Program-made: the position numbers
Shown: positions 1-48,000 of the stretch, one piece after another
How the letters are laid out: the number at the start of each line of letters is the position of its first letter
How positions within the stretch are numbered: the first letter of the stretch is position 1
Source: Carcharhinus amblyrhynchos
Lineage: Eukaryota
NCBI GenBank assembly: GCA_965287045.1
Contig: CBDIYR020000303.1
Location: 62,001-126,000 of the forward strand
Length of the DNA stretch: 64,000 bases
Reading direction: 5' to 3'

Positions 1-3000
1 GGAACACAATTCTCTGAAGTTTCTCTTGCTTGAATTCTAACACTATCTGTCAGTAGTTTATGAGAAACACTTACAATATCAGAGGAAGAAATACGTGAAG
101 TCAATTTAGGCACAATAAGATGCCAGAGAAAATTTTGAAAAACTTTGAACAGTGTAGAATGTTAGATACTGAGCAAAGTCAAACCCCTAAAATAACATTT
201 AAGGGAGGAGCATGTTACACACCCTACCTATCTGTTTGGAGCATCCATTTGAGCAGATCGCGCTTTCTAATAGGATGGGCGATTGTGATCACAAATCATC
301 TGAAACAAATGGCTGAAAAGCATAAATCTGAACAAACTAATGTGATCTTAAATAGGAACCTCATCAACACGACAGCAATCAACTGGAGAATTAACTTCAA
401 CTGACACAACCACATTAACCATCAGTACAAATGTTCCCACCACATCTCCTGGAGCCTCAGTATCAGGAGGTAAATGCCAGAGATGGGGATCTGTGGGGCG
501 GACAGTTATTCATTGCTGCAGTCGGGAAAGTGTGCAGGTGCAATTTCCAAATTTCATTCAAGGAGGACGGTACTGGATCCTGTAACAGTTTCCCTCTGGG
601 AACAGTGTCACTGAATAAACATAGATATACACAGCCTTCAATTCATACACAATGGGAGCATTAAATTCAAGATGCACGTGAGCAGGCAATTCATTTCAAT
701 GACGTTGCTAAGATTTACGTAGGACCACTGTCCTGCTTCTGTTCATAAGGTACCTTCAGATCCAGTACTGGACCAAAGTGGGGAGATTGCGCTCCATTGA
801 ACATCTCAGTGGGGAATAATATCTGTGATAGTGAAGCACTCCCTCTGAGCACTACTGAGAGGATCAGCCTAGCTTTTGCTCTTTGAAGCTGTGACTGCCT
901 CTTAACGTTGATCCAGAAGGAGCCTATGAGAAGTAGTCTTCCATTTCAATATGATAGAAGTACTAGAATTTGAAGCCGGTGTGTGGACATTCACATGGGA
1001 AAGCAGAGACATGGAAAGACCGTTCATTATAAATGTGACACAATTAACTTGACTTTAAACAGGAACAACATCAACAGAACAGGTATCAACAAGTGAATCA
1101 AGTTCAACTGGATCTCCAGCAGCAACCAGCCGCCCAAATCCTGGCCTGACATCGACTGGACCCCGGACATCAGGAGGTAAATGACAGACAATCTGACCGA
1201 TTGTCTCAACATATCAAACTGGAAATATTCTCTGAGCAGCTGGTAGACAAACGGGGAACACAATTCTCTGAAGTTTCTCTTGCTTGAATTCTAACACTAT
1301 CTGTCAGTAGTTTATGAGAAACACTTACAATATCAGAGGAAGAAATACGTGAAGTCAATTTAGGCACAATAAGATGCCAGAGAAAATTTTGAAAAACTTT
1401 GAACAGTGTAGAATGTTAGATACTGAGCAAAGTCAGACCCCTAAAATAACATTTAAGGGAGGAGCATGTTACACACCCTACCTATCTGTTTGGAGCATCC
1501 ATTTGAGCAGATCGCGCTTTCTAATAGGATGGGCGATTGTGATCACAAATCATCTGAAACAAATGGCTGAAAAGCATAAATCTGAACAAACTAATGTGAT
1601 CTTAAATAGGAACCTCATCAACACGACAGCAATCAACTGGAGAATCAACTTCAACTGACACAACCACATTAACCATCAGTACAAATGTTCCCACCACATC
1701 TCCTGGAGCCTCAGTATCAGGAGGTAAATGCCAGAGATGGGGATCTGTGGGGCGGACAGTTATTCATTGCTGCAGTCGGGAAAGTGTGCAGGTGCAATTT
1801 CCAAATTTCATTCGAGGAGGACGGTACTGGATCCTGTCACAGTTTCCCTCTGGGAACAGTGTCACTGAATAAACATAGATATACACAGCCTTCAATTCAT
1901 ACACAGTGGGAGCATTAAATTCAAGATGCACGTGAGCAGTCAATCCATTTCAATGATGTTGTTAAGATTTACGCAGGACCACTGTCCTGCTTCTGTTCAC
2001 AAGGTAACCTCAGATCCAGTACTGGACCAAAGTGGGGAGATTGCGCTCCATTGAATGTCTCGGTGGGGAATGATATCTGTGACAGTGAAGCACTTTCTCT
2101 GTGGACTACTGAGAGGATCAGCCTAGCTTTCCTCTGTGAAGCTGTGACTGCCTCTTACTGTTGATCCAGAAGGAGCCTATGAGAAGTAGTCTTCCATTTC
2201 AATATGATAGAAGTACTAGTATTTGAGTGCCGAAGTGTGGATATTCAGATGGGAAAGCAGAGACATGGAAAGACCGTTCATTATAAATGTGACACAATTA
2301 ACTTGACTTTAAACAGGAACAACATCAACAGAACAGGTATCAACAAGTGAATCAAGTTCAACTGGATCTCCAGCAGCAACCAGCCGCCCAAATCCTGGCC
2401 TGACATCGACTGGACCCCGGACATCAGGAGGTAAATGACAGACAATCTGACCGATTGTCTCAACATATCAAACTGGAAATATTCTCTGAGCAGCTGGTAG
2501 ACAAACGGGGAACACAATTCTCTGAAGTTTCTCTTGCTTGAATTCTAACACTATCTGTCAGTAGTTTATGTGAAACAGTTACCATATCAGAGGAAGAAAT
2601 ACGTGAAGTCAATCTCGGCACAATATGATGCCAGAGAAAATTTTGATAACCTTTCAACAGAGAGTAGAATGTTAGACACTGAGCAAAGTCTGACCCCTAA
2701 AATAACACTTAAGGGATGAGCATGTTACGCGCCCTACCTATCGGTTTGGAGCATCCATGTGAGCAGATCACGCTTTCTAATAGGATGGGCGATTGTGATC
2801 ACAAATCATCTGAAACAAATGGCTGAAAAGCATAAATCTGAACAAACTAATGTGATCTTAGATAGGAACCTCATCAACACGACAGCAATCAACTGGAGAA
2901 TCAACTTCAACTGACACAACCACATTAACCGTCAGTACAAATGTTCCCACCACATCTCCTGGAGCCTCAGTATCAGGAGGTAAATGCCAGACATTGGGAT

Positions 3001-45000: not shown

Positions 45001-48000
45001 AGTGGGGAGATTGCGCTCCATTGAACATCTTGGGGCGAATTATATCTGTGACATTGAAGCACTCCCTCTGAGCACTACTGAGAGGATCAGCCTAGCTTTG
45101 CTCTTTGAAGCTGTGACTGCCTCTTAACGTTGATCCAGAAGGAGCCTATGAGAAGTAGTCTTCCATTTCAATATGACAGAAGTACTAGTATTTGAGCGCC
45201 GGTGTGTGGACATTCAGATGGGAAAGCAGAAACATGGAAAGACCGTTCATTATAAATGTGACACAATTAACTTGATTTTAAACAGGAACAACATCAACAG
45301 AACAGGTATCAACAAGTGAATCAAGTTCAACTGGATCTCCAGCAGCAACCAGCCGCCCAAATCCTGGCCTGACATCGACTGGACCCCGGACATCAGGAGG
45401 TAAATGACAGACAATCTGACCGATTGTTTCAACATATCAAACTGGAAATATTCTCTGAGCAGCTGGTAGACAAATGGGGAACACAAATCTCTGAAGTTTC
45501 TCTTGCTTGAATTCTAACACTATCTGTTAGTAGTTTATGTGAAACACTTACAATATCAGAGGAAGAAATACGTGAAGTCAGTTTAGGCACAATAAGATGC
45601 CAGAGAAAATTTTGATAACCTTTCAACAGAGAGTAGAATGTTAGACACTGAGCAAAGTCTGACCCCTAAAATAACATTTAAGGGATGAGCATGTTACACA
45701 CCCTACCTATCGGTTTGGAGCATCCATTTGAGCAGATCGCGCTTTCTAATACGATGGGTGATTGTGATCACAAATCATCTGAAACAAAAGCATAAATCTG
45801 AACAAACTAATGTGATCTTAAATAGGAACCTCATCAACACGACAGCAATCAACTGGAGAATCAACTTCAACTGACAGAACCACATTAACCAGCAGTGCAA
45901 ATGTTCCCACCCCATCTCCTGGAACCTCAGTATCAGGAGGTAAATGCCAGACATTGGGGTCTATGGGGCGGACAGTTATTCATTGCTGCAGTCGGGAAAG
46001 TGTGCAGGTGCAATTTCCAAATTTCATTCGAGGAGGACGGTACTGGATCCTGTCACAGTTTCTCTCTGGGAACAGTGTCACTGAATAAACATAGATATAC
46101 ACAGCCTTGAATTCATACACAATGGGAGCATTAAATTCAAGATGCACGTGAGCAGGGAATCTATTTCAATGACGTTGCTAAGATTTACGCAGGACCACTG
46201 TCCTGCTTCTGTTCACAATGTACCCTCAGATCCAGTACTGGACCAAAGTGGGGAGATTGCGCTCCATTGAACATCTCGGGGGGAATGATATCTAGTATTT
46301 GCGAGCTGGTGTGTGGACATTCAGATGGGAAAGCAGAAACATGGAAAGACCATTCATTATAAATGTGACACAATTAACTTGATACTAAACAGGAACAACA
46401 TCAACAGAACAGGAATCAACAAGCGAACATAGTTCAACTGACTCTCCAGCAGCAACCAGCAGCCCAAATTCTGCCCTGACATCGACTGGACCCAGGACAT
46501 CAGGAGGTAAATGACAGACAATCTGACCGATTGTTTCAACATATCAAACTGGAAATATTCTCTGAGCAGCTGGTAGACGAATGGGGGACACAATTCTCTG
46601 AAATTTCTCTTTCTTGAATTCTAACACTATCTGTCAGTAGTTTATGTGAAACTTACAATATCAGATGAATGGGAAACATAATTGTCTGAAGTTTCTCTTC
46701 CTTAAATTCTCACACTAAGTGTAACTAGTTTAGGTAAAACAGTTAAAAATCAGAGGAAGGAATATGTGAAGTCAATTTAGGCACAGTAAGATGCTAGAGA
46801 AAATTCTGATGACCTTTGAACTGAGTGAAGAATGTTAGACACTGAGCAAAGTCAGACTCCTAAAATAACATTTAGATTAAGGAGGATGTTATCCTTCCTT
46901 CTGAATTGGAGCATCCATTTGAGTAGATGAAACAGTGTAATGGGACGGACGATTCTGATAACAAATCATCTGAAATAAATCAGCTTGGATCATGTAGATC
47001 AAGCCCAAGACAGGAGATGAGAGCCCTGTCTTGTCAGCTTGGATCGGGAATGTCTCAACTTGTCGAGATTCTGAATTGGACTTGATTTGATTGAACTGGA
47101 TAAAAACAATGAAAAAAATATTTAGATTAAGGAGGGAGAATGTTAAACACCTATTTCCTCTTCTAGTGAAGACTTGAGCAGTGTAATGGGATGGGTGATT
47201 CTGATCACAATTCCTGTGCAAAAAATACAAAAGAAATTTAGATCTGAACAAACTGACGTTATATTAACAGGAACCTCATCAACAGAACAGAAATCAACTG
47301 GACAATCAACTTCAACTGACACAACACCATTAACCAGCAGTGCAGATGTTTCCACCACATCTCCTGGAGCCTCAGTATCAGGAGGTAAATGTTATACATT
47401 GTATTGAGCTGGAGTTCTATTTGTCACAGGATAATAAGCTCTTTTTTCCAGCTGTGTTATTTTGTGAAATTTGTGTGATCAACTGGAACTGGTGAACATG
47501 AGGCATTAACTTGGTATCTGTGGCCCCTTTGCTCTCCATGTCCTATCCGTGCCACTGCATGCCCCTGTACCAACCCCTCCAAACCCCCATGTTATCTAGT
47601 GCCCTGTACCCATAGCAAGCAATTTTGTTCACACTTCAGACATTTTTGTTCCAAAATTTAAAATGCCTTAACAGCTTGATAGCTTCCTTTGACATTTGGT
47701 TTTGACAGGTCCTTTTGACAGTCCTGTCAGGTTCTCTTGACAGTTCTGGCTTTTGCCTTTCAGAGGTCTCTTTGACAGGTATTTCTGACAATATTGACAA
47801 ATGCAGCAGAATTTTCAGGCTCCCCACGGCGTGTTTCTCAGTGGTGGGAGGGGTGCCACCATTGGCCGGCAAATGGGGATGTTCTGGTCCAGCTCCTGTC
47901 ACTGGGATTACCCACTGAATCTACCCCCTGCCGCTGGGAAATCCATGGTGCGGGTGCATCATTGGCAGGACCAGAAGATTCCGCCGCCAGCCAGTGGCCT

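What the first reader, a model, noticed from the sequence alone, without database searches (positions are those of the whole stretch)
1..47384. Mucin glycodomain built from 75+ symmetric 114-nt cassette exons amplified together with their introns
Seen: what looks like a 1.25-kb satellite hides two AG/GT-bounded 114-nt exons per unit, both phase 1-1, encoding 38-aa Thr/Ser/Pro-rich modules in frame with EGF-SEA-EGF-TM exons. Known: mammalian MUC3A/MUC12/MUC17 encode their PTS domain as a VNTR within one giant exon, although exon-per-repeat designs are known for some secreted mucins such as MUC19 and Xenopus FIM-B.1. Inference: glycocalyx length could be tuned both by germline unit copy number and by splicing, because any subset of exons can be skipped in frame. 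That would make a combinatorial length-variable membrane mucin.
Basis: partly seen in the sequence, partly recalled or inferred. Interest (0 to 1): 0.88.

Follow-up and report, generated by a model that had tools for sequence, protein, structure and literature searches.

The report
Shark membrane mucin built from cassette exons
This is most of a shark or ray membrane-mucin gene whose sugar-coated stalk is encoded by at least 75 small near-identical exons instead of one giant exon, a layout already described for chicken Muc13 but seen here on a much larger scale.

Summary
Positions 1-47384 are a ~1254-nt tandem array that runs off the window start. It holds 75 AG/GT-bounded cassettes of two alternating types, A and B. 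72 of 75 are intact 114-nt phase 1-1 exons coding 38-aa modules (62% Ser+Thr+Pro). One has an in-frame TGA and two share a 1-nt deletion.

Ten downstream exons follow in matching phases: Thr/Ser exon, EGF-like, three SEA exons, linker, EGF-like, transmembrane and two tail exons, with a stop at 63006-63008. They map collinearly, 70-89% identical, onto NCBI "mucin-17-like" of Mustelus asterias.

A and B exons are 67% identical while their introns no longer align. A Scyliorhinus torazame predicted protein carries B-A-B-A-B modules in the same register. So these are real, old exons, recently re-amplified in blocks of several units.

The design is not new. Lang et al. 2006 described one repeat per exon in chicken and zebrafish Muc13 and already proposed length control by splicing.

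Splicing tunability is untested here. The three defective cassettes would have to be skipped in any full-length product. Within-array selection tests were mostly weak.

Verdict: a new, very large member of a known kind. I did not build, search or fold a joined spliced model.

The parts
1..47384 (+). Tandem array of ~1254-nt units, each made of exon A, a 592-593-nt intron, exon B and a 433-435-nt intron. It is cut by the window start, so it extends further 5'.

A-type starts (38): 356, 1610, 2866, 4119, 5373, 6627, 7883, 9137, 10393, 11646, 12900, 14154, 15410, 16663, 17917, 19171, 20427, 21680, 22934, 24190, 25443, 26696, 27951, 29203, 30457, 31710, 32963, 34217, 35470, 36725, 37980, 39869, 41125, 42464, 43806, 44501, 45826, 47271.

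B-type starts (37): 1063, 2317, 3572, 4826, 6080, 7334, 8590, 9844, 11099, 12353, 13607, 14861, 16116, 17370, 18624, 19878, 21133, 22387, 23641, 24896, 26149, 27402, 28656, 29910, 31163, 32416, 33670, 34923, 36176, 37431, 38766, 39320, 40575, 41910, 43266, 45286, 46393.

Each cassette is 114 nt, except the two that start at 27951 and 36725 (113 nt).
1610..1723 (+). Representative cassette exon A (114 nt, phase 1-1)
   Evidence: AG acceptor, GAG|GTAAAT donor, open frame. The commonest A sequence occurs 15 times.
1063..1176 (+). Representative cassette exon B (114 nt, phase 1-1)
   Evidence: This exact sequence occurs 32 times. None of its 114 columns varies among the 30 core copies.
470..36837 (+). 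Homogenised core with a higher-order repeat. Unit subtypes run a b c d a b a b c d a b c d a b c d b c e f c d e c' d e f.
   Evidence: Difference matrix of 29 aligned units. Same-subtype copies differ at 0-7 of 1257 columns. Different subtypes differ at up to 65.
37980..47384 (+). Older, diverged 3' tail of the array: 15 cassettes, with introns of 426-764 nt
   Evidence: All 15 keep 114 nt, AG/GT and an open frame, while intron lengths vary.
4119..4232 (+). Defective cassette A with an in-frame stop (CGA>TGA)
27951..28063 (+). Defective cassette A: 113 nt (1-nt deletion), frameshifting if included
   Evidence: It lies in unit subtype f.
36725..36837 (+). Second copy of the same 113-nt defective cassette, 8774 nt (7 units) downstream of the first
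39320..39433 (+). Recombinant cassette with an A-type head and a B-type tail
   Evidence: Translation. It is flanked on both sides by B>A-type introns.
48086..48163 (+). 78-nt Thr/Ser-rich exon, phase 1-1
   Evidence: Window 48106-48162 is 89% identical to the matching P0001 residues.
48858..48968 (+). EGF-like exon 1 (111 nt, phase 1-1)
   Evidence: Pfam EGF_2 scores 20.0 bits against a cut-off of 22.1. tblastn to P0001 and P0002.
50860..50978 (+). SEA exon 1 (119 nt, phase 1 to 0)
   Evidence: Pfam SEA scores 25.5 bits against a cut-off of 26.4. 81% identical to P0001.
52001..52059 (+). SEA exon 2 (59 nt, phase 0 to 2)
   Evidence: tblastn, 77% identical to P0001. Splice sites read.
53370..53509 (+). 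SEA exon 3 (140 nt, phase 2 to 1). It begins with the Gly-Ser-Ile-Ile-Thr site.
   Evidence: (75% identical to P0001)
55685..55753 (+). Linker exon with one Cys (69 nt, phase 1-1)
58846..59008 (+). EGF-like exon 2 (163 nt, phase 1 to 2)
   Evidence: (88% identical to P0001)
61283..61459 (+). Exon holding the end of EGF-like domain 2, the transmembrane helix and the start of the tail (177 nt, phase 2-2)
   Evidence: (85% identical to P0001). A 28-residue uncharged stretch is followed by basic residues (read).
62006..62109 (+). Cytoplasmic exon 1 with a Trp/acid-rich motif (104 nt, phase 2 to 1)
   Evidence: (85% identical to P0001)
62917..63008 (+). Last coding exon, with TGA at 63006-63008
   Evidence: (46% identical to P0002, E 0.36, weak)

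Best explanation
The window holds the 3' part of a SEA-type membrane-tethered mucin gene of an elasmobranch. Relatives are named mucin-17-like by NCBI. It is not human.

Shown:
- The Pro/Thr/Ser stalk is encoded by an array of at least 75 small exons, not one large exon. The exons are of two alternating homologous types (A and B), each 114 nt and phase 1-1.
- Ten exons follow in matching phases: a short Thr/Ser exon, EGF-like 1, a three-exon SEA domain with a Gly-Ser site, a linker, EGF-like 2, one transmembrane helix and a short tail.
- The A/B pair is old. The exons and about 12-30 nt at the splice sites are conserved, the intron interiors are not, and both module types occur in Scyliorhinus torazame.
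- The present copy number is young. Units of 1.25 kb and blocks of several units (abcd, about 5 kb; a 7-unit block) are 99.4-100% identical.

Inferred:
- Unequal crossing-over in register expands, contracts and homogenises the array. A hybrid A/B cassette at 39320 is a footprint of this.
- The spliced product is a heavily O-glycosylated stalk. The 72 intact cassettes alone give about 2,700 residues, roughly 54% Ser+Thr. It would be anchored through a SEA domain that probably cleaves itself.
- Stalk length is set mainly by germline copy number.
- Every cassette is phase 1-1, so skipping any subset keeps the frame. If the assembly is right, three defective cassettes must be skipped for a full-length product. 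Whether skipping is regulated is unknown.
For: - Cassette anatomy and counts.
- Phase continuity to the stop codon.
- Exon A against exon B is 76/114 identical, while their introns are not alignable.
- Core exons vary less than introns. 6 of 228 exon columns vary against 78 of 1029 intron columns (Fisher p = 0.005), and exon B has 0 of 114.
- All 15 diverged tail cassettes keep their length, frame and splice sites while intron lengths range from 426 to 764 nt.
- An HMMER search with the EGF-2 exon alone found 12 proteins at E <= 0.001. The best is 88% identical.
- Names of the relatives: mucin-17-like from Mustelus asterias, Rhincodon typus and Narcine bancroftii, and a Scyliorhinus torazame hypothetical protein.
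- tblastn maps P0001 collinearly onto nine window exons at 70-89% identity, and P0002 onto the tenth.
- Pfam SEA is above its cut-off in P0001 (34.2 bits) and P0002 (42.4 bits).
- P0014 carries B-A-B-A-B 38-aa modules. They match window B exons at 25-27 of 37 and A exons at 26-30 of 37, against 18-21 for the wrong type.
- P0003 and P0002 also carry 38-aa modules in the same register.
- Higher-order repeat.
- Precedent for one repeat per exon in a SEA mucin: PMC1552070, passages read.
Against: - No transcript evidence was available, so splicing of the cassettes is not shown.
- 3 of 75 cassettes are defective. The stop lies in the seventh cassette of the window, so an all-inclusive mRNA from this haplotype would be truncated.
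- Counting each variant once over the whole array, exons are no less variable than introns. 47 of 286 substitution variants lie in exons against 18.2% expected (P = 0.25). Indels were 3 exon events against 17 intron events (P = 0.49).
- pN/pS is 3.4 for A and 1.1 for B. All six core variants in exon A change the protein or stop it.
- The NCBI models for Mustelus and Rhincodon (330 and 346 aa) do not include a cassette array. The S. torazame model reads the EGF-1 exon in a wrong frame, so it is an ab initio prediction.
- No relative of 77-2000 aa was found with a cassette as query, nor one of 579-2000 aa with P0001. Longer proteins were not searched.
- Cassette acceptors have the poorest pyrimidine tracts of the gene, 0.45-0.55 against 0.55-0.85.
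Confidence: 0.8

Rival explanations
1. One reading: stalk length is tuned mainly by regulated, combinatorial skipping of cassettes, so that tissues or conditions produce different glycocalyx heights from one allele.
For: - All cassettes are phase 1-1 with near-identical splice sites, so any subset is in frame.
- The three defective cassettes must be skipped for a full-length product.
- Cassette acceptors are weak.
- The idea was proposed for chicken Muc13 (PMC1552070).
- Frog mucin FIM-C.1 is described as polymorphic through alternative splicing (PMC7177656, passage).
- Titin changes size by exon skipping (PMC3575840, abstract start in the search listing).
Against: - There are no transcript data.
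- Nothing in the sequence distinguishes regulated from constitutive or merely stochastic inclusion.
- I did not look for cassette-specific regulatory elements. Near-identical copies leave little room for copy-specific control.
Confidence: 0.2
2. The array is a decaying satellite of pseudo-exons. A two-exon piece of a mucin gene was amplified as ordinary tandem DNA, and most or all copies are not in the mature mRNA, or this allele is a pseudogene.
For: - 3 of 75 copies are defective, including an early stop.
- Unique-variant counts show no difference between exons and introns.
- pN/pS is 1 or more.
- The named NCBI models of the two closest sharks lack the array.
Against: - The A and B exons stayed 67% identical while their introns diverged beyond alignment.
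- Both module types are kept in S. torazame, and 38-aa modules are kept in a ray.
- Exon B is invariant across subtypes whose introns differ by up to 5%.
- All 15 old tail copies are intact.
- A mucin lacking its PTS stalk would not be a mucin.
Confidence: 0.1
3. The copy number, and perhaps the three defects, are assembly artefacts of a near-identical repeat. The exons are real, but 75 is not the true count.
For: Blocks are 99.4-100% identical. Arrays of this kind are commonly mis-assembled, which is general knowledge. The frameshifted cassette appears twice in otherwise near-identical units.
Against: There are no N runs. The subtype order is irregular rather than a perfect copy-paste. I could not test it further, because no reads were available.
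Confidence: 0.1

Closest known systems
Chicken (and zebrafish) Muc13, Lang, Hansson & Samuelsson 2006 (PMC1552070; passages read)
   Same: Both are transmembrane SEA/EGF mucins whose PTS domain is split into many exons, each coding one repeat unit. The authors suggested that this is the ancestral vertebrate design and that splicing could vary PTS length.
   Different: - The chicken gene has at least 12 exons of 20-aa repeats. Here there are at least 75 exons of 38 aa.
- Here two exon types alternate, and the array has a higher-order repeat.
- The elasmobranch relatives are named mucin-17-like, not mucin-13.
- Orthology is not resolved.
Mammalian MUC3A/MUC3B/MUC12/MUC17 cluster (PMC13643018, PMC9578598; passages read)
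   Same: - The domain order is the same: PTS, EGF-like, SEA, EGF-like, TM, short tail.
- There are ten exons after the PTS part here. Human MUC3A/B are reported to have 12 exons with the PTS in exon 2.
- The Atlas look-alikes of ortholog P0001 are clusters named mucin-12 (0.97) and mucin-3A (0.92). This is a lead only.
   Different: - The mammalian PTS lies in one giant exon with sub-exonic repeats.
- Mammalian tails end in a class I PDZ motif. This one ends Leu-Glu-Ile.
- Synteny could not be tested.
Xenopus multi-exon and spliced mucins: Otogl/MucXS (PMC5789918) and FIM-C.1 (PMC7177656)
   Same: In Otogl the mucin domain is spread over many exons. FIM-C.1 is described as highly polymorphic through alternative splicing.
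   Different: Those are secreted gel-forming or TFF-domain mucins, not SEA-anchored membrane mucins.
Titin PEVK / I-band exon arrays (PMC3575840 and PMC6469411, search-listing abstracts only; the rest recalled)
   Same: It works like this in principle. Many short repeated exons code an extended, unstructured segment, and its length is changed by exon skipping.
   Different: The protein is unrelated and intracellular. Regulated skipping by Rbm20 is shown for titin and not shown here.

Membership tests
SEA-type transmembrane mucin | Long Pro/Thr/Ser-rich tandem-repeat domain | tested here: met
   The 72 open cassettes are 62.1% S+T+P.
SEA-type transmembrane mucin | SEA domain next to the membrane | tested here: met
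   Window SEA exon 1 alone scores 25.5 bits against a cut-off of 26.4. The orthologs score 34.2 and 42.4 bits. The three window SEA exons are 75-81% identical to P0001. The joined window domain was not scored.
SEA-type transmembrane mucin | Self-cleavage at a Gly-Ser site in the SEA domain | not testable with these tools
   A Gly-Ser-Ile-Ile site lies at the start of SEA exon 3 and is kept in P0001, P0002, P0013 and P0014. Cleavage itself needs protein work. The consensus motif is recalled.
SEA-type transmembrane mucin | Single transmembrane helix and short cytoplasmic tail | tested here: met
   A 28-residue uncharged stretch is followed by basic residues in exon 61283-61459, and two tail exons run to the stop. 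This was read by eye. No predictor was run.
MUC3/MUC12/MUC17 cluster | EGF-like domains on both sides of the SEA domain | tested here: inconclusive
   EGF-1 scores Pfam EGF_2 20.0 bits against 22.1. EGF-2 has no Pfam hit. Its cysteine spacing was read by eye across two exons.
MUC3/MUC12/MUC17 cluster | PTS domain in one large exon | tested here: not met
   There are at least 75 separate exons. The feature is taken from PMC13643018 and PMC9578598.
MUC3/MUC12/MUC17 cluster | Class I PDZ-binding C-terminus | tested here: not met
   The last residues are Leu-Glu-Ile. The rule that Ser or Thr sits at position -2 is recalled.
MUC3/MUC12/MUC17 cluster | Position between ACHE and TRIM56/SERPINE1 | not testable with these tools
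   The window holds only this gene. No eukaryotic genome collection was on hand.
Muc13 with multi-exon PTS (chicken type) | One PTS repeat per exon | tested here: met
.
Muc13 with multi-exon PTS (chicken type) | Orthology to MUC13 / neighbour of HEG1 | not testable with these tools
   No flanking genes lie in the window. No named MUC13 sequence was compared.
Splicing-tuned repeat-exon arrays (titin PEVK type) | Differential inclusion of the repeat exons in transcripts | not testable with these tools
   No transcript data. Only the precondition was met: symmetric phase 1-1 exons.

The most novel reading that the evidence does not exclude
The cassette array works as a splicing rheostat. Inclusion of the near-identical phase 1-1 exons is variable and regulated, defective cassettes are routinely skipped, and one allele yields a range of glycocalyx heights.

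Together with the chicken and zebrafish Muc13 data, one repeat per exon would then be the ancestral state of vertebrate SEA mucins. The giant single PTS exon of mammals would be secondary.
Probability: 0.2. Interest if true: 0.65.

Novelty: new member of a known kind. Interest (0 to 1): 0.4.

Why it matters
Membrane mucins set the height and density of the epithelial glycocalyx. In mammals their length varies only through repeat number inside one exon.

This locus extends the exon-per-repeat design to cartilaginous fish and to a gene named mucin-17-like. That fits the 2006 proposal that the design is ancestral.

The scale is large: at least 75 cassettes, a two-exon unit and block amplification. 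It is therefore a good natural case for two questions:
- How does a spliceosome handle dozens of identical exons?
- Is mucin length set at the RNA level?

It also warns annotators. Such arrays look like satellites, and the short public models of the closest sharks do not include one.

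Tried and rejected
- **SEA exon 2.** My first guess at 51062 had no donor in a compatible phase. tblastn with P0001 placed the exon at 52001-52059.
- **Tandem Repeats Finder.** It does not list the 1.25-kb unit, because its longest period is 500.
- **Protein search with cassette A.** One search was too short. One search found no hit among proteins of 77-2000 aa.
- **P0001 against longer proteins.** No hit among proteins of 579-2000 aa. 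Models above 2000 aa were never searched.
- **PDB sequence searches with three single exons.** Only chance-level hits, best E 0.014, to unrelated proteins.
- **Rfam.** 0 matches.
- **Pfam.** Nothing on four intronic open frames of one unit, nor on SEA exon 3, the linker and the two tail exons; only sub-threshold chance matches on the TM exon.
- **Within-array selection tests on unique variants.** Not significant. The raw count of 77 intron gap openings against none that changes an exon's length is inflated by shared ancestry, so I do not rely on it.
- **Literature on shark membrane mucins.** The search for 'transmembrane mucin', 'shark' and 'SEA domain' gave 4 papers, all about MUC1 therapy. 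The search for 'mucin', 'catshark' and 'glycocalyx' listed none with catshark among the 8 shown.
- **PMC4948705 and PMC9712336.** Neither had anything on membrane-mucin exon structure.

Full report
**Observation.** The window has no N. A scan for the cassette donor motif gives 75 sites spaced alternately 707 and 547 nt. Taking the 114 nt before each site:
- 75 of 75 are followed by GT.
- 73 of 75 are preceded by AG.
- 72 of 75 are open in the frame that leaves two bases at the start and one at the end (phase 1-1).

The two apparent misfits, at 27951-28063 and 36725-36837, keep an AG but are 113 nt long. They share one 1-nt deletion plus a C>G change. The cassette at 4119-4232 carries CGA>TGA. 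There are 38 A-type and 37 B-type cassettes, alternating except for one B-B and one A-A step in the tail. The array runs off the window's 5' end. The 72 open cassettes are 27.7% Thr, 25.9% Ser, 9.4% Gly and 8.6% Pro.

**Are these real exons or just a young repeat?** Most of the 75 copies are not independent. An alignment of 29 units shows a higher-order repeat: a b c d a b a b c d a b c d a b c d b c e f c d e c' d e f. Same-subtype copies differ at 0-7 of 1257 columns, and different subtypes at up to 65. I therefore looked for older signals, and four support real exons.
- Exon A and exon B are homologous. They are identical at 76 of 114 positions, against a shuffle mean of 31.5 and a maximum of 46 in 2000 shuffles. 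The two introns no longer align: global score 23.5 against shuffled 15.8 +/- 4.5; best blastn E 0.37. Only about 12 nt at the donor and about 30 nt at the acceptor still match. This is the classic pattern of exons and splice signals kept while introns drift.
- Among core subtypes, 6 of 228 exon columns vary against 78 of 1029 intron columns (Fisher p = 0.005). Exon B has 0 of 114 variable columns.
- All 15 diverged tail cassettes keep 114 nt, AG/GT and an open frame, while their introns range from 426 to 764 nt.
- A public predicted protein of Scyliorhinus torazame (P0014) starts with five 38-aa modules in the order B-A-B-A-B. The B modules match window B exons at 25-27 of 37 positions and window A exons at 18-21. 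The A modules match window A exons at 26-30 of 37 and window B exons at 19-20. P0003 (unnamed) and P0002 (Narcine bancroftii) also carry 38-aa modules in the same register.

**Evidence that points the other way.**
- Counting each variant once over the whole array, exons hold 47 of 286 substitution variants against 18.2% expected (P = 0.25). They hold 3 indel events against 17 in introns (P = 0.49). Three rearranged introns were left out of this count.
- Tail exons differ from the core consensus at 6.4% of positions, and tail introns at 7.4%.
- pN/pS is 3.4 for A and 1.1 for B. All six core variants in exon A are missense or nonsense.
- Constraint therefore acts on frame, length, splice signals and composition, hardly on the exact residues. 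That fits a mucin stalk but is weak statistically.

**Downstream gene.** I searched exon by exon. An HMMER search with the EGF-2 exon alone found 12 proteins at E <= 0.001. I used only the three best, at 88%, 62% and 56% identity. P0004-P0012 could come from any vertebrate and carry no name, so I left them unread. A later search named the relatives:
- P0001: mucin-17-like, Mustelus asterias.
- P0013: mucin-17-like, Rhincodon typus.
- P0002: mucin-17-like, Narcine bancroftii.
- P0014: a Scyliorhinus torazame hypothetical protein.

The window is therefore elasmobranch, not human. tblastn of these public proteins against the window, with the splice sites read, gives ten exons:

| Exon | Coordinates | Length (nt) | Phase |
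|---|---|---|---|
| Thr/Ser exon | 48086-48163 | 78 | 1-1 |
| EGF-like 1 | 48858-48968 | 111 | 1-1 |
| SEA 1 | 50860-50978 | 119 | 1-0 |
| SEA 2 | 52001-52059 | 59 | 0-2 |
| SEA 3 | 53370-53509 | 140 | 2-1 |
| Linker | 55685-55753 | 69 | 1-1 |
| EGF-like 2 | 58846-59008 | 163 | 1-2 |
| End of EGF-like 2 plus TM | 61283-61459 | 177 | 2-2 |
| Tail 1 | 62006-62109 | 104 | 2-1 |
| Tail 2 | 62917-63008 | 92 | 1 to stop (TGA 63006-63008) |

The phases chain without a break from the last cassette. Pfam SEA is just under its cut-off on window SEA exon 1 alone (25.5 bits against 26.4). It is above the cut-off in P0001 and P0002 (34.2 and 42.4 bits). A Gly-Ser-Ile-Ile site opens SEA exon 3 and is kept in all four relatives.

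No joined model was translated, searched or folded.

**Family.** The domain order matches the MUC3/12/17 group. Atlas look-alikes of P0001 are clusters named mucin-12 (0.97) and mucin-3A (0.92) (a lead only). Two features reported for the mammalian cluster are not met:
- a single PTS exon;
- a class I PDZ C-terminus. Here the end is Leu-Glu-Ile.

Synteny could not be tested. Whether the gene is orthologous to MUC17-type or MUC13-type genes stays open.

**What is already known.** Lang et al. 2006 reported that chicken Muc13, a transmembrane SEA/EGF mucin, has its PTS domain in multiple exons (PMC1552070, passages read). There are at least 12 repeats of 20 aa, one per exon, with EST support.
- They said a zebrafish homologue is similar.
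- They called this a possible ancestral design.
- They proposed that splicing could vary PTS length within one individual.

Multi-exon mucin domains are also noted for Xenopus Otogl (PMC5789918). FIM-C.1 is called polymorphic through alternative splicing (PMC7177656). What is added here is the lineage, the two-exon unit, the number of cassettes and the block amplification. I did not see Figure 5 of Lang et al.

**Mechanism.**
- Shown: the exon anatomy, the phase symmetry, the higher-order repeat, a hybrid A/B cassette at 39320, and three defective cassettes.
- Inferred: unequal crossing-over in register expands and homogenises the array. The spliced stalk is densely O-glycosylated. Length is set chiefly by copy number.
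- Open: whether cassettes are skipped. If the assembly is right, a full-length anchored product requires skipping the stop-bearing cassette and the two 113-nt cassettes. That is the one sequence-based hint in favour of skipping. The hint could also reflect a null allele or assembly error.

**Not checked.**
- No eukaryotic genome, read or transcript collection was on hand.
- Proteins longer than 2000 aa were never searched.

Noticed in passing
window 50144-50346 and 54411-54613 (also 50067-50144 / 54616-54693): An inverted repeat of 203 nt, 95% complementary, plus a second 78-nt pair, brackets the three SEA exons (50860-53509). This block starts and ends in phase 1, so skipping it would stay in frame. 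The repeat is probably two copies of a mobile element in opposite orientation. Pairing of the arms in the pre-mRNA could favour skipping or back-splicing of the block. Not tested.
   Followed up: partly
window 49099-50110: A 28-nt minisatellite of 36 copies, 81% matches, lies in the intron between EGF-like exon 1 and SEA exon 1. It abuts the left arm of the inverted repeat, and a short piece of it recurs at the right arm.
   Followed up: no
window 59472-61225: A 69-nt tandem array of 25 copies, 89% matches, fills most of the intron before the transmembrane exon and ends 58 nt before it. Its long open frames on the minus strand are repeat artefacts.
   Followed up: no
window 39320-39433 and 43806-44614: The cassette at 39320 is a recombinant with an A head and a B tail, with B>A-type introns on both sides. 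Two A cassettes are adjacent at 43806 and 44501, separated by a chimeric 581-nt intron. Both are footprints of unequal exchange within the array.
   Followed up: partly
window 1063-37544 (30 core B cassettes): Exon B is identical in all 30 core copies, although the flanking introns of the unit subtypes differ by up to about 5%. Exon A carries six variants, all protein-changing. I have no explanation for why the two exon types behave so differently.
   Followed up: partly
window 62006-62109: The cytoplasmic exon codes a Trp- and acid-rich motif that is kept in P0001, P0013, P0014 and, more loosely, P0002. It recalls tryptophan-acidic motifs that bind kinesin light chain. That resemblance is recalled, not tested.
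   Followed up: no
P0014 and P0003 against window 48681-48977 and 55685: The S. torazame model P0014 reads the EGF-like exon 1 in a wrong frame (compare). P0003 joins its last 38-aa module directly to the linker exon and lacks the EGF-1 and SEA exons. That is in frame because the whole block is bounded by phase 1. These may be mis-predictions, paralogues or isoforms.
   Followed up: no
window 38094-38765, 41239-41909, 42578-43265, 44615-45285: Tail copies of the A>B intron carry 79-94 extra nt at consensus position about 109-112 relative to the core. This is either an insertion in the old copies or a deletion that spread with the core amplification.
   Followed up: no
window 99-404 (and each unit): A 101-codon stop-free frame crosses the B>A intron into exon A in another frame. 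It has no Pfam match and I take it as chance.
   Followed up: yes
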